A stretch of DNA of 64,000 bases from Treponemataceae bacterium (GCA_963677895.2 CAXXGJ010000025.1:32001-96000), one strand, 5' to 3'; counted from the first letter of the stretch, positions 34,488-42,994 are shown. Notes: generated from the letters alone by a model not told the origin. A program made the numbers and translations.

Positions 34488-37400
34488 CTAAGGCCTGACC
34501 GGCCGCTCCACAGCAGCCTCGACAGGCCACTCCACAGCAGCCTCGACAGGCCGCTCCACAGCGGCTTCGGCCGCCCATGCATCCCTCACGATATAATAGC
34601 TTTTCTTCAGCTTTTCACGATAGGGAGGAGCCTCTTCCCAAACCTTCCAGAAATAGGGATACGAGGGATTCAACTCTATTCCGCCCGTCGTTTTCCCCTG
34701 CTTTTTATCCCATGCGACCGCGTCGACGAGAAAGCCGTCGGTTGCTATTGTCTTCAGCGCGTCCCTTTCTGGATTGAAATAGCCCGTCCTCGAATCCTGG
34801 AGGACCTGGCGCGAAGAAGGATCGGTCACGTTGATGTAAGTCCAGGGCAGGCGCAAAGAGATGGTCGATCCCTGGATGTTCCAGAGGTTGCCCGCTTCAT
34901 CGAAGGGACCGCGGCGCAGGGCTGAAGCGTCGAAACGCTTCTCGGCGATGCTCCTGCCGTCTTTCGTCCGCGCCGCTCCATTGACGAGCATGCTGATCCG
35001 CTCGAATTGGCCGTCGGAGAGGCGAACCGTGGCGAAGCGGGACATGGCCGCATTGTAGGTCGGGATGACGAGGAGATCAGCTTTGTCGGCCGCGTACAGG
35101 CGGAGGACAAATTCCAGTCCGGAGTTCGTCTTCATTTTGCCGATGGGCCAAAGCATCTGCCCCAGGTCTCGGCCGAGCGTATCGAGTCCGACCAGGATTT
35201 CCTCCGCGGCGAAATCGGGGGCTCGCTTAAGCTTTATCGTAATATTCAGGTACGACGCGTCGGCCGACAGTTCCATTGAATCGACGATGCCATTGCCTTT
35301 ATATGCTACATCGGGCCGTTCCGGAGTCAGGACTTCGTTCGCCATAAGGCCGTAGTTTTGCCCAGGGTCGACGGCGTTGTGCCAGAGGACATGCCGGTCG
35401 TAGGGAATCATAAGCGTCTCGGTGGTCCAGGTTTTCTTCACCCACTCGTCCATCCACTCGAAGATGACGCCGCCGGCATAGCCCTCTTTCCGGATCGCGT
35501 CCATCATCCTGAGGATGCCTTCCCCGGCCGCTGTTTCGCCTAAGCCGCCATGATGCAGTCCATCGGGGGCAAAATGCGCGATGCCCGAACCGTTGGCCAG
35601 GCCGAACTCGGCCACGAGGGCGGGATAGCGTCCATGACTCTCCATGAACTCCCTGAGATATCCGCCATAGCGGAGCAGGCCTTCTTCATCCTTGTAGGAG
35701 CCATAGGCGGTCTCATTGTTCATGAAATCGGGATAGTTCGGGTAGATGTGGTAGGCGCCGAAGAGCCCAGCTGTCATGGCGGGCGTGATTTCAAAGTGAT
35801 CTATGGTCACGCTCGCCCTGTCGTTTCCCTTATTCTTCTTGCCGGTCGCGGGGTCCCACTCCGAGTCGTGTTCCTTGGGATCCAGGGTCGGCCAGCTCAC
35901 GATGGAGACGGGATGGAGCCGGCCGTATCGAGCCGCTTCGATCGACGCCACTTCGTCCAGCGATTCGGCCAGCCATACTTCCGTCGGCGTCGCCTCTGGC
36001 CCGGCCGAGACATACTTCCCCGTATATGCGACATTCCTGTTGTGCGCATCCGTTTCCATGACTTCTTCGCTCTCAAGCTCCCGGCCCACGAGCCATCCCA
36101 GAAGCCATTTCGATACATCGGCCGTATAGATGCCCCAGGCTCTCCCCTTGCGATCCGGCACATTGGCCCGGCCGTAAACGGCATCGATGCCGTAATCGAT
36201 TTCCTTGAGGAAGCTTTCCCTATATTCGGGCGCGAGATAGTCGCCATTGGCGGGATTTTCCTCTGGCCAGATTTCCTGGAGCAGATAGAGCGTTCTGTCG
36301 GGATGCTCGGTATTGTGGATGAACAGCGCCTTATAGAACTCGGGCGGCGGAAGCGTGTAGATCCTTACGGTATTGGCATTCATGTCGGCGATGCCTTCGA
36401 GCCAACGCGCGTAGGTCCCGACGTCTTCCGGGAAATTGGTGAAGTACATACCCGGTTCCGCGAAGCCCATGTTGACGCCGCGCACGAAAAAATCTTTCCA
36501 GCTCCCGTCCTTGTCGCGTAGCTGAAAGCTTTTTCCGAAGGCCCTGACGTCGACTTTGGGTTCGCCTTGTTCGTTGGGTATCAAAGTTCTCGCGGCCTTG
36601 GCCTTTTCCGCGTCGCGTAGTATCGAGCGTATGAGCGGCACATAGGCCTTCCAGAAGAAATAGGCGTTGCTGTCCACCGAATCGTCGATAAGCAGTTTTT
36701 TCAGCCAGGAGATACCCTTCATTCCGTAGGGAGTGGATATAGCCTGGAGGTCGGCGAAATCCCCCGCGAAATACCAGCCCGAATACTGCGGGTTTTTATA
36801 GAGAAGAATGGCCGGAAAGGCTGAAGGCAGCCCGAGGCTATCCAGTTTGGCCTTTCCGCTCGCGGTAAGGTCGAGATTATAATCGGCGACGATTTCCGAT
36901 CCGCTGTCGGGGACGGTCCACTCGAACCAGGAACGGTAGGAAATAGGTTTTTTCGATTTCAGGGTTTCGGCCCAGGGATCTCTGAAGGAAAACTTCAGCC
37001 CGTCCTTGCCCAGATCGTCCTTTTCCGTCAGCACCTCGACATGGTCTTCATCCGAGATGAGAATGTATCCGCGGCCAAAAAAGCTCCATTGCTTGCCGGT
37101 TTGAGCCGCGTAATTGGATATCACCCAGGCAGGGACTTCTTTCCCCGCCGTGAGATCCTCGAAATACTTGCCGATCCATCCTTTCCACTGGATGCCCAGC
37201 AACCTTCCCAGCGTAAGCCTGTCTTTCAGGTTCGTCGGCGAGGCCGCCGAATTGAACTCGGCCATGAAGGTATTCCCGGCCCCCAGGTTCTTCCTTATCG
37301 TCTGGATATCCTCCGAGGTCAAGGCGCCGTATAGCTTGGAGGAAATTTCGCCCGCCAGCTTCTTCTGCATATAGTCGTCTTTGTAGACGCCATAGGTATC

Positions 37401-37754
37401 GGTGATATAGACGATATCGGGCCGCCGTCCATCGGCCGGCAGGGAAAGGCTTCTCCATTCGTTTTCGCCATAAGGATAGAAGCCGAAGTAATCGGATTTT
37501 TCATTATAGAGCCGTCTGGAGCCCAGCTTCGCGATTTTCTCGTTTTTCAGCACCCAGAAAAATCCGGCGTGTTCACGGTAATCTGGATATGGAACGGTCT
37601 TGTCCACAGCCCATATGTTGAGTTCGCGCGATGGGGCGACCTGCCACAAGATGAAAGGAGACAGAACGAGGAGGACCATTCCGGCCGTGATCGCGACGAG
37701 GAGGATGCCCAGGATCATCATCGTGGAACGTTGACCGATTCCAGAACTCTTCAT
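34488..37754 (-). CDS. Membrane-anchored fusion protein: N-terminal conserved hypothetical domain + C-terminal GH-A-like (GH2/GH5-like) TIM-barrel domain
   Basis: N-terminal TM helix; DKTVPYPDYREH, YITDTYGVY, YFAGDFAD in the N-half; FVRGVNMG, NANTVRIYT, GRELE, YHIYPNYP, VAEFG, FEWMDEW in the C-half. Confidence 0.7.
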   Translation of the reverse strand: MKSSGIGQRSTMMILGILLVAITAGMVLLVLSPFILWQVAPSRELNIWAVDKTVPYPDYREHAGFFWVLKNEKIAKLGSRRLYNEKSDYFGFYPYGENEWRSLSLPADGRRPDIVYITDTYGVYKDDYMQKKLAGEISSKLYGALTSEDIQTIRKNLGAGNTFMAEFNSAASPTNLKDRLTLGRLLGIQWKGWIGKYFEDLTAGKEVPAWVISNYAAQTGKQWSFFGRGYILISDEDHVEVLTEKDDLGKDGLKFSFRDPWAETLKSKKPISYRSWFEWTVPDSGSEIVADYNLDLTASGKAKLDSLGLPSAFPAILLYKNPQYSGWYFAGDFADLQAISTPYGMKGISWLKKLLIDDSVDSNAYFFWKAYVPLIRSILRDAEKAKAARTLIPNEQGEPKVDVRAFGKSFQLRDKDGSWKDFFVRGVNMGFAEPGMYFTNFPEDVGTYARWLEGIADMNANTVRIYTLPPPEFYKALFIHNTEHPDRTLYLLQEIWPEENPANGDYLAPEYRESFLKEIDYGIDAVYGRANVPDRKGRAWGIYTADVSKWLLGWLVGRELESEEVMETDAHNRNVAYTGKYVSAGPEATPTEVWLAESLDEVASIEAARYGRLHPVSIVSWPTLDPKEHDSEWDPATGKKNKGNDRASVTIDHFEITPAMTAGLFGAYHIYPNYPDFMNNETAYGSYKDEEGLLRYGGYLREFMESHGRYPALVAEFGLANGSGIAHFAPDGLHHGGLGETAAGEGILRMMDAIRKEGYAGGVIFEWMDEWVKKTWTTETLMIPYDRHVLWHNAVDPGQNYGLMANEVLTPERPDVAYKGNGIVDSMELSADASYLNITIKLKRAPDFAAEEILVGLDTLGRDLGQMLWPIGKMKTNSGLEFVLRLYAADKADLLVIPTYNAAMSRFATVRLSDGQFERISMLVNGAARTKDGRSIAEKRFDASALRRGPFDEAGNLWNIQGSTISLRLPWTYINVTDPSSRQVLQDSRTGYFNPERDALKTIATDGFLVDAVAWDKKQGKTTGGIELNPSYPYFWKVWEEAPPYREKLKKSYYIVRDAWAAEAAVERPVEAAVEWPVEAAVERPVRP
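34501..34568. repeat. 24-bp in-frame tandem repeat, about 2.8 copies, encoding AAVE(R/W)PVE at the C-terminus
   Basis: GGCCGCTCCACAGCAGCCTCGACA / GGCCACTCCACAGCAGCCTCGACA / GGCCGCTCCACAGCGGCTTC. Confidence 0.9.
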
Positions 37755-40700
37755 TTCTTGTCCTTGTCAGGCTGATTCCCGGTAGGCCCCTGGGCCGTGC
37801 CGGATGAGGAAAAGCCCTTTCTTTCCATCTTGCCCCAACCTTTCGGCTTTTTCATGGCGCTCAGGAAACCGAACACGCGCCACATCGAAAACAGCTGCCT
37901 GGGACCGAAATTCTCGATGAGGGCGATGGCGAGCATCTTCAGAGTATCCTTATACGAGAAATAATAGATCTGCCGCTCAGCGATCAGCACTGAAGCCATG
38001 GAAATGAGGATCCCCATGAAGACGGTCGAGAGGAAAAGAAGAATGGCGAGCTTGGCGCTTATCAAACCGAGAAGAGCCGCCAAGAAGACCATGAAATAGC
38101 CTTGAATCTCAAATAGCGGGCCGATCATCTCGAAAATAAGAAAATACGACATCCCGATCATGCCCATTTTTCCATAGCCGGGATTGAAAATCAGCTTTCT
38201 GTGGAAATACAGTATATCGATGAGCCCTCTATGCCATCTGTCCCTCTGCCGCTTCAGGACATCTATGCTTTCCGGAACCTCCGTCCAGCAGTTGGCGTTA
38301 TAGGCGTAGCTTATCCTGTATTTCTGCTTTTTTTCCCGCATATGCCTGGCCAGCCTCACGACGAGCTCCATGTCTTCTCCCACGGTATCCTTCCCGTACC
38401 TTTCGTTGCTGGTAAGATAGCCGCCTACGCTGACCACCCGCTCCTTCCGGAAAAGACCGAAGGCGCCGGAGATAATGAGAAGCGTATTGATCTGCGCCCA
38501 GCCGAGCCTGCCGCACATGAATGCCCTCAGATATTCGATGGTCTGCAGTTTGGCCAGGTTGTTGGCCGGAAGCGCTATGTGCGTGAGCTTTCCGCGGTCC
38601 ACGCCGCATCCGTTTATGGGGAACACGTTGCCGCCCATCGCGGGCGTCTCCACCCCGTAATCGAGGGTCATGGCGGCGACCTTCAGCAATGAATCGGGCT
38701 CGAGAAGCGAATCGGCGTCTATGCCGCAAAAATATTCCTTGGAAGCGATGTTGATGCCGGCGTTGAGCGAATCGGCTTTCCCGCCGTTGTCCTTGTCCAC
38801 GACGACGAGACGCGGGTAAAGAGGATTCAAATAGATTCCCCTCACCGAAGCCGTCTTCAGCCGCTGTGTGTAATAATAATCCGTCCGCTTGAGACCGTAA
38901 TGGGAAATGAGGCTGTTCAGCGTGCCGTCGCGAGATCCGTCGTTGACGACGACGAGCTCGTAGTCCGGATACTTGAGATTGAGCAGGGAACTCGTGCTCT
39001 CTATGATCGTCTTCTCTTCGTTGAAAGCCGGGGCGATGATGGAGACCGAAGGAAGTATGCGGGGCTTGAAAAGGAAGGACATCGTCTTGAGATTCCAGAG
39101 CCGGGTGGAAGATTTCACCTTCACGGTCGAGAGCAGGAGGAGAACGATATAGATCGCGTTGATCGTCATCGAATACCAGGCAAAGTTATAGTTTACGTCC
39201 ACGACGTAGGTTTTCAGCTGCACGAGCGGCGGGATGGAACCTATCTGGCTGCCATGGCTTAAAAAGTAAATAGCGGGAAAAAACAGAAGCGATCCGATCA
39301 ATATCATATAGAGCCGACGCACCATTTTCCAGTCCCGTTTTTCTTCGCGCTTTTTGACGGGAACCGTGATTCTCCGGAAACCGCATTTCTCGATGAGGCG
39401 ATCGGGAAGATAGAGTCCGCATTCCGTCCTCAGCCTTTCGCTTCCATCGGCTTCTTCGCGTATGATGGCGATTACGGCAGCCTCCAGAGCCTCATCCTTG
39501 TTCAGTTTCAAAAACTCGATGATCTCCGAAACCTTCCCGAGCCGGATGACCTCGCTTATGAGCCGGGCCGACTTTTCCTTCTCCTTCCCCGAGAGTTTGG
39601 TTATGAAATATTCGATCTTTCCAGCCAGGATTTCCGCCAGGCTCTGGACGATGTTCTCGTCGGTCGTTTCCTCGAAAGCTTCGACGACCGATGGAATGAG
39701 CCGCGGATGCTCCATGAGAATCCGCGAGAGGCCAATTTTCGCCGGTATCGCCGTCTGCTCATCTCCGAGATAGCGCAGCAATGTATCGATATTATCCTGG
39801 CTGTTTCCGTCGCCGAGGGAGCGCACCGCGATGGCGCGGATATCCTTGTCTTCATGTTCGAGGAACTCCGTGGAATTCAATACATCGCCATAGAATTTTT
39901 CGATGCACTCGGCCGCTTTCAGCATGAGCCTGTGATGGTTCTCCACGGGGTGTTGGCTCGTGACAAGGAGCTTGAAATGCCTGCAGTAAAAATCCGGCGA
40001 GACGCTGCCCTTGTATTTGCATTGTCTTCGCTGATCGTCGGCGATCGTCTGTCCATGCCTGCAGAAGGCGCAGCATTTTTCGGGACAGCCATGCACCAAA
40101 GCCGAAAGCCGGGCCATCTCGGCCTGCCCCCCGGAGAGCATCGCGACAAGATACTCCTTAAGGTCTTCAGAAATATAGGTGATGGATATATCCAGAAAGA
40201 GCTCGAGTATCTCGCTGTCTTCGCGCCAGAAATATCCGCGCAGATAATCTGAAGCCTCCGGACCGAAGGAAGCGATGAGGAGATTCACTTTATCGCGATA
40301 CCAGCGATGCGCGCCGATCAGGCTCTCTACGAGTACATTCAGGGACCGGGGATCCCCGATTTCGGCTAACGCGTTCGCTATGAACAGCTTGACGGGAAAT
40401 TCCTTTTCGACAAGAAGCGCTTTTTCGAGTGTCGCGCGGGCATCGTCGCTCCTGATCAAGGAAAGTCCCAGAGAGGCTTCCATCCGCTCGTAGCGGCTTT
40501 GATACCTGATTCTTCTCTTGAGGATGGACTCCAGCTTTTCCGACCTGGCCAGGCTGAGAATCCTGAGATGCTCCTTTTCGGGAAGCTGTATGGACTGCTT
40601 CAGCCGCAGGTAATTATCGAAAAGCCTGCTCACTCTTTTCTTGTCCCACTTGGTGCCTGTCTCGAAAAGATGGTTGAGTTGGGCGATTTCCCTTTGTCGC

Positions 40701-40816
40701 CGCTCGTCAGAAAGCGCAAGCCTGGACTTGTTGATCAGCGTCGTCAAAATGATGAAAATATCGAACCAAAGGAAAAAGATAACGGCGAGCAGTATGAATT
40801 CTATCTCGAGATTCAT
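37751..40816 (-). CDS. HEAT-repeat + processive GT2 glycosyltransferase fusion (PgaC/IcaA/cellulose-synthase-like)
   Basis: N-terminal TM helix and HEAT-like repeats; IIAPAFNE, VNDGS, NGGKADSLN, IDADS, GEDMEL, QRDRW (QxxRW); C-terminal TM helices. Confidence 0.88.
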   Translation of the reverse strand: MNLEIEFILLAVIFFLWFDIFIILTTLINKSRLALSDERRQREIAQLNHLFETGTKWDKKRVSRLFDNYLRLKQSIQLPEKEHLRILSLARSEKLESILKRRIRYQSRYERMEASLGLSLIRSDDARATLEKALLVEKEFPVKLFIANALAEIGDPRSLNVLVESLIGAHRWYRDKVNLLIASFGPEASDYLRGYFWREDSEILELFLDISITYISEDLKEYLVAMLSGGQAEMARLSALVHGCPEKCCAFCRHGQTIADDQRRQCKYKGSVSPDFYCRHFKLLVTSQHPVENHHRLMLKAAECIEKFYGDVLNSTEFLEHEDKDIRAIAVRSLGDGNSQDNIDTLLRYLGDEQTAIPAKIGLSRILMEHPRLIPSVVEAFEETTDENIVQSLAEILAGKIEYFITKLSGKEKEKSARLISEVIRLGKVSEIIEFLKLNKDEALEAAVIAIIREEADGSERLRTECGLYLPDRLIEKCGFRRITVPVKKREEKRDWKMVRRLYMILIGSLLFFPAIYFLSHGSQIGSIPPLVQLKTYVVDVNYNFAWYSMTINAIYIVLLLLSTVKVKSSTRLWNLKTMSFLFKPRILPSVSIIAPAFNEEKTIIESTSSLLNLKYPDYELVVVNDGSRDGTLNSLISHYGLKRTDYYYTQRLKTASVRGIYLNPLYPRLVVVDKDNGGKADSLNAGINIASKEYFCGIDADSLLEPDSLLKVAAMTLDYGVETPAMGGNVFPINGCGVDRGKLTHIALPANNLAKLQTIEYLRAFMCGRLGWAQINTLLIISGAFGLFRKERVVSVGGYLTSNERYGKDTVGEDMELVVRLARHMREKKQKYRISYAYNANCWTEVPESIDVLKRQRDRWHRGLIDILYFHRKLIFNPGYGKMGMIGMSYFLIFEMIGPLFEIQGYFMVFLAALLGLISAKLAILLFLSTVFMGILISMASVLIAERQIYYFSYKDTLKMLAIALIENFGPRQLFSMWRVFGFLSAMKKPKGWGKMERKGFSSSGTAQGPTGNQPDKDKK

Positions 40817-42846
40817 CTCCCCGCCCCTGCCGATGTCATATTACGGACAATCCCCAGAAGTTCGGGGAGAAGATAAGGTTTTTTCAGATAATGGTCGATT
40901 CCCAATTTATACGCTCTGGAAACGGATTTTTCATCCTTTCGATGGGACATCAGTATGAAAGGAATATCCTTGGTTCCCGATTTCCTCGAAAGGGCTTCCT
41001 TGAGCATGAGGCCGTCGATCTTGGGAACCATGAGTTCCGAGATGATGAGATCGTAGCCTTCCTCGCTTATTTTTTTCAGGGCTTCGGCGCCGTCTTCGGC
41101 TACGGCGACGGAATAATCGGCATTCTCGAGAAATGTCCTGATGACGCCCGCGTTTACGGCATCGTCGTCGATGATCAAAATTTTCGCCTTGGATTCGACC
41201 TCCGTCCCGACCTCGGACGACGAACATATGGTATCGCCGCCGCGCCGCCGCGCCCAACGCAAACGCCTCAAGCCGATCTCGTAGAGCGAAGCCCCGGCCT
41301 CGGCGGAATCCATGATCGACGACCTGATTTCGGCTATCGCGACGAGGCCGATGGATATGGTGACCGGCTCTATGAAGGACCTGGAGATCTCGACATTCTT
41401 CCTAATTTGCTCGCAGAGATCATTCGCTTCATGGAAGACGATGCGCGGCATCCAGATCGCGAAGGTCGCCCCATGCAGGCGGAAAACAGGCTGGCTCGCT
41501 GTCTTGTGTTCGAGCATGATCCTGGTAACGCCCTTGAGGACAGCCTCCACTTCGCGCGGGCCGTATTGATATTCGATTGTGGAAATAGTGTCATCGATGC
41601 CGATAACGGCCAGGACATCGTCTTCCATCCCTTCCGCGTTCAGCGAAAGCGAGGCTTGCTCGTCGATGAAATTTCGGAAGAAAGCTTCGTTGTATAGTCC
41701 GGTGGTGGTGTCCCGCAGCTGGGATTCGTTCGCTTGGCCGTAAGCCTGCATGAGCTGTTCGTTCAGCTGCCTGAGTCTGGCGACTTCCTGCCCAAGCTCT
41801 TCGAAATTCCGCTCCGATTCCTTCAGGATGGATGCGTATATCCCGGGACGCTTTATGCCGAATTCCTCGCAGAGTTTGGCCACGAAAGGTTCCAGCAGGG
41901 TCAGAGCGGAATGGCCCTGCACCAGATAAATAGTGTCGGCGAGCCTGTTCCACAGGTCCAAGCCCATCGGCGCTGCGTTGACGATGGCGCCGGTCTCAGG
42001 GTCCAATTCAAGCCCAAGCTTGAGGGCAACCGTATCGGCAAACTTCCGGCCATAAACGGCGGAAAAACGCGCCAAAAGCTGCTTGGACGGCTCAAGGGAC
42101 TCACTGGAATCGCCCAGGTTTTTTTTGGGGAAACCCAGCAAAGTGCCGCATTCCAGGGTTCTCAGCGCGTCGATATACGTCTTGATGTCGCGATTGATGA
42201 TCGATCCATGCTGGGGAAGAATGGCGGCGAGTTCGAGACAGGAGAAGATTTCCATTACCGGTCCCAATATTTCGTGGGAGGGCATGTAATGTTCATGGAA
42301 GGTTTTCATCCCATCCAAATAGTCTTTCCCCGCATAGAGCGACCACTCGGGCGTAAAAGCGCCGAAAAGGTCGCTGGAAAGAAGTAATTTAGCCTGTCTA
42401 TCGTAGGTCGCGATCGCGCCGGGAAAATGAAGATAAGCCGTCGGTATGAAGCGCAGCGCTCTCCCCGAGGCAAGGGTGAGAAGATACCCATGCTCATCCA
42501 CCAAGTAGACGGGCGATTGGATCCCATAGAAACGAACAAGCGTCCAGGTTCTCCAGTGCGTTACGATGGTGAAGCGCATTCCGAGCGCCTCTAGGTGAGG
42601 CACCGCCGAAGCGAGATCGGGATCCTGATGGGACAGCACTACATATTTGACTTTTTCGAGCGGTATTATGGAGGCGATATTGGCCGCCACCTCCCCGACA
42701 TCGAGGACCGATCCAGGGTCGAACAGGACGGCTTCTTCTCCCTCGACGAGCAAATAGGGATTGCACTGAAGACTATCGGTTGCGGCCCGGGCGCCGACCC
42801 AGTAATAGCCTGACCCAAGGGATTCGCCCCCGCTTCCTGACGCCAT
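40813..42846 (-). CDS. MBL-fold di-iron (ODP-like) domain + degenerate GGDEF + atypical receiver domain
   Basis: LQCNPYL, FDPGS, SHQDPD, YLHFPG, SSDLFG, PQHG; DTTTGLYN...RLHGATF...VTISIG; IIDDD...DLIISELMVPKIDG; start MASGSGG after AGGAG. Confidence 0.8.
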   Translation of the reverse strand: MASGSGGESLGSGYYWVGARAATDSLQCNPYLLVEGEEAVLFDPGSVLDVGEVAANIASIIPLEKVKYVVLSHQDPDLASAVPHLEALGMRFTIVTHWRTWTLVRFYGIQSPVYLVDEHGYLLTLASGRALRFIPTAYLHFPGAIATYDRQAKLLLSSDLFGAFTPEWSLYAGKDYLDGMKTFHEHYMPSHEILGPVMEIFSCLELAAILPQHGSIINRDIKTYIDALRTLECGTLLGFPKKNLGDSSESLEPSKQLLARFSAVYGRKFADTVALKLGLELDPETGAIVNAAPMGLDLWNRLADTIYLVQGHSALTLLEPFVAKLCEEFGIKRPGIYASILKESERNFEELGQEVARLRQLNEQLMQAYGQANESQLRDTTTGLYNEAFFRNFIDEQASLSLNAEGMEDDVLAVIGIDDTISTIEYQYGPREVEAVLKGVTRIMLEHKTASQPVFRLHGATFAIWMPRIVFHEANDLCEQIRKNVEISRSFIEPVTISIGLVAIAEIRSSIMDSAEAGASLYEIGLRRLRWARRRGGDTICSSSEVGTEVESKAKILIIDDDAVNAGVIRTFLENADYSVAVAEDGAEALKKISEEGYDLIISELMVPKIDGLMLKEALSRKSGTKDIPFILMSHRKDEKSVSRAYKLGIDHYLKKPYLLPELLGIVRNMTSAGAGR

Positions 42847-42994
42847 CGCGTACTCCTGCCCTACTGATGTTATAGTTTGGCTCAATTCACGGCATAACAC
42901 CGCTATCCCGTGATAATACAGCGTTCAACTTCAATAATAATGCATAATGATACGCTTAGTAAGGCTTTTTACTGTTTGTCCCTGCATATTTCAT

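What the first reader, a model, noticed from the sequence alone, without database searches (positions are those of the whole stretch)
34488..42846. Three-gene operon of multidomain fusions: candidate O2/Fe-sensing exopolysaccharide synthesis system
Seen: three translationally coupled genes with 4-bp overlaps at 40813-40816 and 37751-37754. They encode (i) an MBL-fold protein with HQDPD/H/D/H ligands + degenerate GGDEF + atypical REC, (ii) HEAT repeats fused to a processive GT2 with intact D,D,D,QxxRW motifs, and (iii) a membrane-anchored protein ending in a clan GH-A-like barrel. Established: a processive GT2 plus an associated hydrolase is the layout of synthase-dependent EPS systems (Bcs, Pga, Pel), and HQDPD-type MBL domains are the di-iron O2/Fe sensor ODP described in Treponema denticola chemotaxis. 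Inference: an ODP-like sensor with non-catalytic output domains may control the synthase directly through its cytoplasmic HEAT scaffold, linking oxygen or iron status to matrix production. I do not recognise this compact architecture as any named EPS system.
Basis: partly seen in the sequence, partly recalled or inferred. Interest (0 to 1): 0.8.

Follow-up and report, generated by a model that had tools for sequence, protein, structure and literature searches.

The report
Oxygen-sensor-coupled HEAT polysaccharide synthase operon
Three overlapping genes of a spirochaete encode a membrane sugar-polymer synthase with a built-in helical scaffold, a predicted glycan-cutting enzyme and a di-iron-type sensor protein with dead signalling domains, a set shared by several groups of bacteria known as anaerobes that likely lets oxygen or iron switch polymer synthesis without the usual messenger c-di-GMP.

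Summary
Observation confirmed: three intact genes with two ATGA overlaps.

A: ODP domain with all di-iron ligand positions, a dead GGDEF without I-site, and a receiver with Glu at the phospho-Asp.
B: TM-HEAT scaffold fused to an intact processive GT2 of hyaluronan-synthase-like fold.
C: membrane-anchored clan GH-A barrel of no Pfam family, both catalytic Glu kept.

A precedes B in 45 of 45 loci with a complete A (Spirochaetota, Bacillota, Chloroflexota). The operon is a variant of a wider receiver-HEAT-GT2 family. Receivers beside split HEAT/GT2 genes keep Asp (12 of 13); ODP-type receivers have Glu (45 of 45). Best reading: ODP replaced the kinase input and a phosphomimic receiver gates the synthase through HEAT (binding untested; complex tool unavailable).

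Limits: ODP is decayed or absent in several lineages, C is accessory, no exporter is encoded, and the polymer is unknown. It is not Pga, Bcs, Pel or YaiOP; Xag could not be tested by sequence. No paper was found. This scan reported the same system earlier on other genomes.

The parts
40813..42846 (-). Gene A, 677 aa cytoplasmic sensor: ODP - helical linker/coiled coil - dead GGDEF - Glu-type receiver
   Evidence: no convincing TM segment (one weak window)
42205..42771 (-). ODP (oxygen-binding di-iron protein) domain, aa 26-214; HQDPD, H140, D159, H184, H213
   Evidence: PF19583 1.3e-56; best PDB hits 6qrq 7.7e-26 and 6qnm 2.7e-23; all eight positions intact in 36 of 43 orthologues
41227..41715 (-). 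Degenerate GGDEF domain, about aa 378-540: HGATF instead of GGDEF, first metal Asp and NDxxGH motif lost, no RxxD I-site
   Evidence: canonical motif in 0 of 45 and 0 of 83 orthologues, RxxD in 1 of 45 and 1 of 83
40846..41181 (-). Aspartate-less receiver, aa 556-667, with Glu604 at the phospho-acceptor position; acidic pocket, Ser634 and Lys656 kept
   Evidence: Glu in 45 of 45 (A4) and 82 of 83 (A2)
37751..40816 (-). Gene B, 1021 aa: N-terminal TM anchor, cytoplasmic HEAT solenoid, TM hairpin, processive GT2 and C-terminal membrane helices
   Evidence: model pLDDT 83.9, pTM 0.81; best folds are hyaluronan synthases, then cellulose and chitin synthases
39377..40579 (-). HEAT/PBS-lyase-like solenoid, about aa 80-480; inferred cytoplasmic, on the same side as the GT2 domain
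   Evidence: PF13646; alphaRep hits; DSSP; TM segments at 1-31, 498-522, 545-567
39983..40072 (-). Four-cysteine insert CxxC-x13-C-x11-C inside the HEAT region; possible Zn or Fe site (inferred)
   Evidence: motif in 24 of 45 orthologues; small beta insert in the model
38207..39055 (-). GT2 catalytic domain, about aa 588-870, with NDG, DAD, VGEDM and QRDRW
   Evidence: motifs in 45 of 45; best NCBIfam model PgaC_IcaA, 113 bits against a cut-off of 422
34488..37754 (-). Gene C, 1088 aa: N-terminal membrane anchor, alpha/beta domain, clan GH-A-like barrel, C-terminal beta domain; inferred periplasmic
36600..37622 (-). N-terminal alpha/beta domain of C (about aa 45-385), no family; missing in some orthologues
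   Evidence: Atlas: unnamed clusters at 0.96, DUF2194 only at 0.82, a lead
35325..36557 (-). (beta/alpha)8 barrel of C (about aa 400-810); Glu559 after strand 4 and Glu716 on strand 7, the clan GH-A acid/base and nucleophile positions
   Evidence: strand order from the model; E559 in 97 of 98 and E716 in 98 of 98; Foldseek GH157 9e-13, GH158, GH2, GH5; Atlas GH2/GH5/GH72-like clusters at 0.90-0.91
34575..35312 (-). C-terminal beta-rich domain of C (about aa 815-1060), always found with the barrel; possible carbohydrate-binding module (inferred)

Best explanation
The operon is a compact variant of a widespread receiver-HEAT-GT2 gene set in which B likely polymerises and translocates a glycan across the inner membrane and A likely gates B by direct contact, with an iron/oxygen-binding ODP domain in place of a kinase as the predicted input. 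Steps: (1) shown by sequence: B has all catalytic motifs and a hyaluronan-synthase-like membrane fold, and HEAT packs against it in the model. (2) Shown: A cannot make c-di-GMP or be phosphorylated at the usual site, and lacks the RxxD site for binding c-di-GMP. (3) Inferred: in relatives with split HEAT and GT2 genes a phosphorylated receiver docks on the membrane-anchored HEAT protein and turns the synthase on; in the ODP type the receiver is fixed as a Glu phosphomimic. (4) Inferred: the ODP state (apo, diferrous or peroxo-diferric) is passed through the coiled coil and the dead GGDEF, which act as a PleD-like dimer scaffold, and sets whether the receiver can reach HEAT. I commit to 'on when Fe-loaded ODP binds O2', a protective coat for an anaerobe (about 55:45 on direction). 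(5) Inferred: C is an accessory periplasmic retaining glycosidase or transglycosylase that trims, releases or re-links the chain. The sugar is unknown: GlcNAc-containing about 50%, beta-glucan about 35%.
For: A directly precedes B in 45 of 45 loci with a complete A (44 fused B, 1 split), even where C moves upstream or 3 kb away, and in 14 of 14 relatives found without selecting on C. In an evenly drawn sample of 151 phylum genomes, all 7 other fused HEAT-GT2 genes follow a gene ending in a receiver, 6 with Glu. Receivers next to split HEAT/GT2 genes in Mesorhizobium, Erythrobacter, Haloarcula, Emticicia, three Bacillota and six spirochaete-phylum genomes carry Asp in 12 of 13 and Glu in none; the Mesorhizobium locus also has a hybrid kinase and an Hpt gene. 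Asp-to-Glu is described as a phosphomimic in natural aspartate-less receivers (PMC12548384, passages). ODP ligand positions are intact here and in 36 of 43 orthologues; ODP is an oxygen sensor in Treponema denticola (PMC7666581, passages) and is fused to another output, a cyclase-like domain by my reading of the sequence, in G028 and G036. Named ODP-type hosts (Acetobacterium, Syntrophomonas, Desulfitobacterium, Acidaminobacter, Anaerolinea, Sphaerochaeta) are anaerobes by my own knowledge. Model of B: pTM 0.81.
Against: ODP ligands are lost in 7 of 43 orthologues, six of them in one spirochaete clade that keeps the operon and the Glu receiver. ODP is decayed in G176 and G121, absent in three genomes of genus g63, and decayed with an Asp receiver in G014 and G024. 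Six of 19 split loci examined have no adjacent receiver (L016, L017, L077, L078, L097, L107). Only 26% of substitutions at that Asp are Glu and the change does not always activate (PMC12548384). C is not found in 5 of 5 tested genomes with fused B from the phylum sample, and C occurs without a GT2 in full-flank loci such as L037, L047, L055, L063 and L075. The operon has no exporter. The 74-locus set was picked by similarity to C, and kin are not independent.
Confidence: 0.5

Rival explanations
1. A is a constitutive structural subunit of the synthase. The Glu receiver is always docked; ODP is a passenger or only tunes stability, and the operon is controlled by transcription.
For: ODP decays or is lost in several lineages while the Glu receiver and B persist; the receiver is the most constant part.
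Against: All eight ligand positions are kept in 36 of 43 orthologues at 32-78% identity to A, across three phyla, which points to selection on the metal site.
Confidence: 0.2
2. The product is not an exported matrix but a periplasmic or wall-associated glucan or oligosaccharide that C cuts or re-links, as in GT2 plus transglycosylase systems for periplasmic glucans (NdvB type, recalled). Compatible with either regulatory model.
For: No TPR-barrel gene in the operon and no YaiO match in the genome, whereas diderm relatives without C carry a TPR or YaiO-type barrel gene at the locus. C's best folds are beta-1,3-glucanases GH157 and GH158, with GH72-like features. GH16 or GH16-like genes flank the operon in Acetobacterium-type (6 loci) and Sphaerochaeta/Caldisericia (11 loci) sets.
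Against: The same three genes serve monoderm Bacillota, where the product would reach the surface without a pore. The best sequence model for B is PgaC/IcaA, and a polysaccharide deacetylase flanks 9 loci, which suggests GlcNAc. Foldseek identities are only 10-16%.
Confidence: 0.3
3. A senses a nucleotide rather than O2: the dead GGDEF binds c-di-GMP or GTP at a non-canonical site, or the MBL fold is a dinucleotide phosphodiesterase, giving a PelD/YdaK/PssE-like receptor.
For: The genome has 21 ORFs with a GG[DE]EF string. One relative's degenerate GGDEF (L045) keeps an RxxD. A few GGDEF-domain residues (D418, G429, E432, R528) are invariant.
Against: RxxD is present in only 1 of 45 and 1 of 83 ODP-type orthologues, and the GTP-binding motifs are lost. 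The MBL domain has the ODP signature HQDPD, and its best solved matches are ODPs.
Confidence: 0.12
4. B is a non-processive membrane glycosyltransferase making a glycolipid or short glycan.
For: GT2 folds of non-processive membrane enzymes (PcManGT 6yv7, GtrB) also appear among the hits.
Against: QxxRW and the GED base are invariant, the best folds are polymerising synthases, and relatives are encoded with TPR-barrel exporters, hydrolases and deacetylases.
Confidence: 0.07

Closest known systems
PgaABCD / IcaADBC poly-beta-1,6-GlcNAc systems
   Same: Processive GT2 with QxxRW; TIGR03937 is the best NCBIfam model for B (1.3e-32); relatives of this family have TPR-barrel and deacetylase neighbours.
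   Different: 113 bits against a cut-off of 422; no PgaA, PgaB or PgaD in the operon; a HEAT solenoid is fused to the synthase; the partner is a receiver protein, not a c-di-GMP site (Pga control recalled).
Bacillus subtilis YdaJKLMN, Listeria PssA-E and Pel (PelD/E/F) systems (all recalled, not fetched)
   Same: A dead-GGDEF protein is encoded with a synthase and a hydrolase; Pel also uses a helical-repeat scaffold beside its transferase.
   Different: Those receptors bind c-di-GMP at an RxxD I-site, absent here; their hydrolases are GH8 or GH166 and PelF is GT4, whereas here the enzymes are clan GH-A and GT2; none has an ODP or a Glu receiver.
ODP of Treponema denticola and Thermotoga maritima (PDB 6qrq, 6qnm; Muok et al. 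2019, PMC6660769, not held)
   Same: PF19583 above cut-off and identical ligand positions.
   Different: The known ODP is a stand-alone protein coupled to a sensor-less chemoreceptor and CheA (PMC7666581, passages); here it is fused to dead GGDEF and receiver domains and coupled to a synthase.
Class I hyaluronan synthases (Chlorella virus, Xenopus HAS1) and BcsA
   Same: Best structural matches to B (E 1e-12 to 1e-9): a single subunit that polymerises and translocates.
   Different: 13-18% identity; no PilZ domain; TIGR03030 CelA scores 22.8 against 699; HEAT solenoid added.
Aspartate-less receivers with Glu, such as CmrT of Clostridioides difficile and AtvR (PMC12548384, passages)
   Same: Glu at the phospho-site with Thr/Ser and Lys retained.
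   Different: Those are OmpR- and NarL-family regulators; here the receiver is the C-terminal end with no DNA-binding domain and is encoded against a synthase.
Xanthomonas xagABCD, Sphaerotilus sthA, E. coli yaiOXPS
   Same: Poorly characterised GT2 loci tied to biofilm or sheath (PMC3609779, PMC4643136, PMC6975536, passages); YaiO barrels occur in relatives of this family.
   Different: YaiP matches B at only 27% over 255 aa, against 34-44% over more than 410 aa for family members. No Xag or SthA sequence could be fetched, so kinship is untested; the passages read mention no HEAT, receiver or ODP part.

Membership tests
ODP (PF19583) | Profile score above cut-off, HQDPD plus His/Asp/His/His positions as in solved ODPs | tested here: met
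   192 bits vs 27.2; residue alignment with 6qrq and 6qnm
ODP (PF19583) | Binds two irons and O2 reversibly | not testable with these tools
   needs protein chemistry; property recalled from Muok 2019, which was not held
ODP chemotaxis module | Stand-alone ODP coupled to a sensor-less chemoreceptor | tested here: not met
   fused to GGDEF and receiver; neighbours are B and a divergent cstA
Diguanylate cyclase (PleD type) | GG[DE]EF active site and metal/GTP ligands | tested here: not met
   HGATF; canonical motif in 0 of 45 and 0 of 83
Degenerate-GGDEF c-di-GMP receptors (PelD, YdaK, PssE) | RxxD I-site upstream of the motif | tested here: not met
   absent in A; 1 of 45 and 1 of 83 orthologues; a non-canonical site is not excluded
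Canonical receiver | Phospho-acceptor Asp | tested here: not met
   Glu604 in 45 of 45
Aspartate-less receiver, Glu type | Receiver fold with Glu at the Asp site | tested here: met
   PF00072 83 bits; definition from PMC12548384
Processive membrane GT2 synthase | D, DxD, (E)D and QxxRW motifs with flanking membrane helices | tested here: met
   45 of 45; TM segments; HAS/Bcs/Chs folds
Processive membrane GT2 synthase | Polymer formation and sugar specificity | not testable with these tools
   needs an assay
Pga/Ica PNAG system | TIGR03937 above cut-off | tested here: not met
   113.3 vs 422.3 bits
Pga/Ica PNAG system | Deacetylase, small membrane partner and (in diderms) TPR-porin in the operon | tested here: not met
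   flanking genes are cstA, DUF493 and an M29 peptidase; a deacetylase like the one beside Sphaerochaeta-type loci lies on another contig
Bcs cellulose system | BcsA with PilZ, BcsB, GH8 BcsZ | tested here: not met
   CelA 22.8 vs 699 bits, no PilZ or BcsB family hit, hydrolase is a TIM barrel
Pel system | GT4 synthase PelF with PelG and PelA | tested here: not met
   the synthase is GT2; Pel features recalled
Xag (Xanthomonas) / SthA (Sphaerotilus) | Orthology to XagA-D or SthA | not testable with these tools
   no named sequence reachable; founding papers not read (Suzuki 2002 not held; Tao 2010 not looked up); secondary passages only
E. coli YaiOXPS | Synthase orthologous to YaiP | tested here: not met
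   26.7% over 255 aa, 45 bits, against 251-370 bits for family members
Clan GH-A glycoside hydrolase | (beta/alpha)8 barrel with Glu after strand 4 and Glu on strand 7 | tested here: met
   strands 424, 462, 490, 551, 616, 663, 712, 761 in the model; E559 97 of 98, E716 98 of 98; Foldseek; positions read from strand order, not from a superposition
A named GH family (GH157, GH158, GH2, GH5, GH72) | Sequence similarity to family members | tested here: not met
   no Pfam, NCBIfam or PDB sequence hit, also with the 98-row profile; 9-16% identity in fold hits

The most novel reading that the evidence does not exclude
Receiver-HEAT-GT2 is an undescribed third way to switch a synthase-type polysaccharide machine, by a receiver domain docking on a HEAT adaptor instead of c-di-GMP, and anaerobes have turned it into a one-step oxygen/iron switch: a di-iron ODP domain drives a receiver locked in a Glu phosphomimic state directly onto the synthase, with no kinase, second messenger or transcription step, while a hydrolase of an unnamed clan GH-A family shapes the product.
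Probability: 0.4. Interest if true: 0.8.

Novelty: new variant of a known kind. Interest (0 to 1): 0.6.

Why it matters
The characterised synthase-dependent polysaccharide machines I know (Bcs, Alg, Pel, Pga, Pss, Yda; recalled) are gated by c-di-GMP. This family appears to use a receiver and a HEAT adaptor instead, from haloarchaea to spirochaetes. The variant here suggests a direct link from O2 or iron to polymer synthesis in acetogens, syntrophs and spirochaetes, which could bear on how strict anaerobes aggregate and survive oxygen in digesters and groundwater. It would give ODP a second role outside chemotaxis and add an unnamed clan GH-A family (at least 569 matching stretches in GTDB). 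Cultured non-pathogenic carriers exist (Acetobacterium malicum DSM 4132, L057), so the question can be tested directly.

Tried and rejected
Complex prediction of the receiver (A 550-675) with B (30-875): the tool's queue was full, nothing was folded and there is no verdict.

Profile comparison of C with a GH42M/deacetylase neighbour from G153: no similarity (probability 0.5%).

Sequencing runs: no RNA holder listed; this says nothing on expression. No reads were laid.

Promoter scan: no minus-strand sigma-70-like site upstream of A, and terminator-like sites no more than chance, 7 vs 10.

Local GC is somewhat lower (0.53-0.54 at 36-42 kb, against 0.56-0.63 in most of the window), but 30-32 kb and 46-54 kb are as low, so I do not read it as an island.

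GT2 tree: only the quick IQ-TREE search finished and it is midpoint-rooted; no donor or order of events is claimed.

Literature: (HEAT repeat with GT2, receiver, YaiO or sthA terms) returned 0 papers; two searches listed 8 and 2 papers, none on this gene set by title or start of abstract. Subscription papers and bioRxiv supplements were not searchable; an ODP domain-fusion list in the supplement of Muok 2019 could already show ODP-GGDEF-receiver proteins.

Rejected: active diguanylate cyclase; canonical c-di-GMP receptor; membership of Pga, Bcs, Pel or YaiOP; an obligatory three-gene unit; chance adjacency.

Full report
1. OBSERVATION. Three minus-strand genes are present as described: A (42846-40813, 677 aa), B (40816-37751, 1021 aa) and C (37754-34488, 1088 aa). 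Both junctions are ATGA overlaps. An AGGAG lies 6 nt before the ATG at 42846, which favours it over the GTG at 42900. The nearest named homologues are from Rectinemataceae spirochaetes. The unit is flanked by a divergent cstA and a convergent DUF493 gene.

2. GENE A. Pfam gives ODP (192 bits, cut-off 27), GGDEF (41) and receiver (83). The best solved matches are the two ODP structures, with HQDPD, H140, D159, H184 and H213 aligned to identical residues; which of these bind iron I take from memory, as the ODP paper was not held. All eight positions are intact in 36 of 43 orthologues whose ODP is covered in the locus alignment, and in 68 of 83 in the protein-search alignment. The GGDEF domain is dead: HGATF here, a canonical motif in 0 of 45 and 0 of 83, an RxxD in 1 of 45 and 1 of 83. 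The receiver keeps its acidic pocket, Ser634 and Lys656 but has Glu604 at the phospho-site, in 45 of 45 and 82 of 83. PMC12548384 (passages) describes such Glu-type aspartate-less receivers and says that Glu can mimic phosphorylation but does not always activate.

3. GENE B. Hydrophobic segments at 1-31, 498-522, 545-567 and 898-950 place the HEAT solenoid on the same, cytoplasmic, side as the GT2 domain (inferred). NDG, DxD, VGEDM and QxxRW are kept in 45 of 45 orthologues. The model (pLDDT 83.9, pTM 0.81; the other four models 72-76) matches hyaluronan synthases best, then cellulose and chitin synthases, at 13-18% identity. The best NCBIfam model is PgaC/IcaA, far under its cut-off. A CxxC-x13-C-x11-C insert lies in the solenoid in 24 of 45 orthologues.

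4. GENE C. No Pfam, NCBIfam or PDB sequence match, even with a 98-row profile. The model (pLDDT 90.7, pTM 0.87) has a membrane anchor, an alpha/beta domain, an eight-stranded barrel and a beta domain. Foldseek ranks GH157, GH158, GH2 and GH5 first, and the Atlas gives unnamed clusters, then GH2/GH5/GH72-like ones. Glu559 follows strand 4 and Glu716 lies on strand 7; they are kept in 97 and 98 of 98 rows. This is the clan GH-A pattern of a retaining hydrolase or transglycosylase; the substrate cannot be read from 10-16% identity.

5. CONSERVATION. Among 41 genomes (own plus 40 relatives), 16, all of the host's family, carry B and C; 14 have a close A and in all 14 it abuts B; the other two (G014, G024) have a divergent A. 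A GTDB scan with C found at least 569 stretches, of which the best 80 gave 74 loci. Of these, 57 show the GT2 and 45 a complete A, and each of the 45 is followed by B (44 fused, 1 split), mostly with a gap of -4 to +5 bp. They span Spirochaetota, Bacillota and Chloroflexota. Sphaerochaeta-type loci have the order C-A-B, and L072 has two genes between C and A, but A-B stays joined. Of the 17 loci without a GT2, about ten are cut by contig ends and at least five are full-flank orphans of C.

That set was chosen by C, so I also searched 151 genomes drawn evenly from the phylum. Twenty have this GT2, eight of them fused to HEAT (own genome included). I fetched the 7 other fused loci and 7 of the 12 split ones. 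All 7 fused genes follow a gene ending in a receiver (6 Glu, 1 Ser), but ODP is intact in only 2, decayed in 2 and absent in 3. None has C nearby, and C was not found in the 5 of these genomes tested (90-98% complete; positive control G002 in the call for four of them). So receiver-HEAT-GT2 is the core, and ODP and C are optional.

6. THE WIDER FAMILY. A plasmid search with the GT2 domain gave 14 records at 31-42% identity. I opened five of them, plus two found with C. They show HEAT and GT2 as separate adjacent genes, usually behind a single-domain receiver, with a TPR or YaiO barrel gene in three diderms. Of 19 split loci examined, 13 have an adjacent receiver: 12 with Asp, one with Asn, none with Glu. 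Six have none. Three Bacillota use PleD-like proteins with degenerate GGDEF and an Asp receiver. In the quick GT2 tree (64 rows) the 46 ODP-linked rows and five rows whose contigs end upstream form one group (SH-aLRT 85), with G014 as sister (99). Rectinemataceae-type rows lie nearer to Bacillota and Chloroflexota rows than to Sphaerochaeta rows, which suggests transfer among anaerobes; the tree is unfinished and midpoint-rooted, so this is a lead. The Asp-to-Glu change may be one event inherited by many, so 45 of 45 shows long retention, not 45 independent origins.

7. MECHANISM. Shown by sequence and models: an intact polymerising GT2 with a HEAT arm; a sensor protein with an intact ODP site and no enzymatic or phosphorylatable output; tight coupling of the two genes across three phyla; an intact GH-A barrel. 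Inferred: a sensor with no kinase, cyclase or DNA-binding domain must act by contact, and its constant neighbour is the obvious target. The family's ancestral switch is probably a phospho-receiver docking on HEAT. The ODP type fixed the receiver as a phosphomimic and controls its access through ODP, the coiled coil and the dead GGDEF. I put this chain at 0.5, and the direction (on with O2) only slightly above even. The binding step could not be modelled. Rivals: a constitutive subunit (0.2), a nucleotide receptor (0.12), a non-processive transferase (0.07). Independently of regulation, the product may stay periplasmic (0.3): this operon has no exporter and the genome has no YaiO match (92.8% complete; control rang in E. 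coli), whereas relatives without C often carry a barrel gene.

8. KNOWN SYSTEMS AND LITERATURE. It works like a synthase-dependent system but fails the defining tests for Pga/Ica, Bcs, Pel, the Yda/Pss receptor type and E. coli YaiP (see Membership tests). Xag and SthA could not be compared by sequence. Papers seen: passages of PMC3609779, PMC3826837, PMC4643136, PMC6975536, PMC7666581, PMC9665402 and PMC12548384; search listings only for the rest; Muok 2019 and Suzuki 2002 not held. Searches found no paper, and 16, 17, 30, 42, 68, 69 and 114 listed none describing this gene set. The library lacks most subscription papers.

9. EARLIER NOTES OF THIS SCAN. The same three-gene set (e1-5478184, seen), the ODP-coupled fused synthase (e1-2365737, e1-3393070) and the wider receiver-HEAT-GT2 core (e1-2891291, e1-2172907, e1-3026607, e1-4866576, e1-5249818, after my own analysis) were reported on other genomes. 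They are AI notes and not independent support. My phylum sample contradicts the wording in e1-2365737 that the fused synthase 'always' follows an ODP sensor.

10. VERDICT. A real, conserved and apparently undescribed module; a new variant of synthase-dependent polysaccharide systems with an unusual, probably c-di-GMP-free control. Interest 0.6.

Noticed in passing
window:39983-40072 (-): Four-cysteine insert inside B's HEAT solenoid, present in 24 of 45 orthologues and absent in Sphaerochaeta-type and Acidaminobacter/Anaerolinea-type genes; a possible second metal or redox site on the synthase itself.
   Followed up: partly
L028-L030, L032-L034, L084: One spirochaete clade (six loci) and L084 have lost ODP ligands but keep the Glu receiver and the operon: natural sensor-dead variants for comparison.
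   Followed up: partly
L098:5189-6865 (G014), L099:4395-6086 (G024): Divergent copies with a decayed ODP and an Asp receiver in front of a fused HEAT-GT2; G014's GT2 is sister to the ODP-type group in the quick tree.
   Followed up: partly
L100:4864-6528 (G028), L101:5725-7374 (G036): ODP with intact HxDPD fused to what reads as a class III adenylate/guanylate cyclase domain (my reading of the sequence, not scanned): another ODP output.
   Followed up: no
L074:11652-14294, L079:9321-12014, L017:7476-9902, L016:6723-8924: A paralogue of C's barrel plus beta domain lies beside the operon; L074 and L017 carry N-terminal TPRs. No paralogue was found in the window's genome.
   Followed up: partly
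L052:17877-18626, L044:18755-19690; G000 C18:203452-203898 and C21:13586-14374: Sphaerochaeta-type loci are followed on the other strand by an unnamed, GH16-like-looking protein and a polysaccharide deacetylase; the window's genome has homologues of both (38% and 50% identity) on other contigs, not beside any synthase.
   Followed up: partly
L037, L047, L055, L063, L075: Full-length or barrel-only C genes with no family GT2 within 10 kb (Syntrophomonas wolfei, Thermovenabulum, Carboxydothermus, Caloramator); whether the synthase lies elsewhere in those genomes was not checked.
   Followed up: no
window:42947-46841 (+): Divergent cstA - ArsA-like ATPase - small membrane protein cluster, syntenic with the operon in 8-12 spirochaete loci only; apparently an unrelated neighbour.
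   Followed up: no
window:34440-34560 (-): C ends in a low-confidence tail with a threefold AAVE[RW]PV repeat that orthologues lack.
   Followed up: no
L032: The record title says Leptospira biflexa, but its genes group with Rectinemataceae-type spirochaetes; probably a mislabelled MAG.
   Followed up: no
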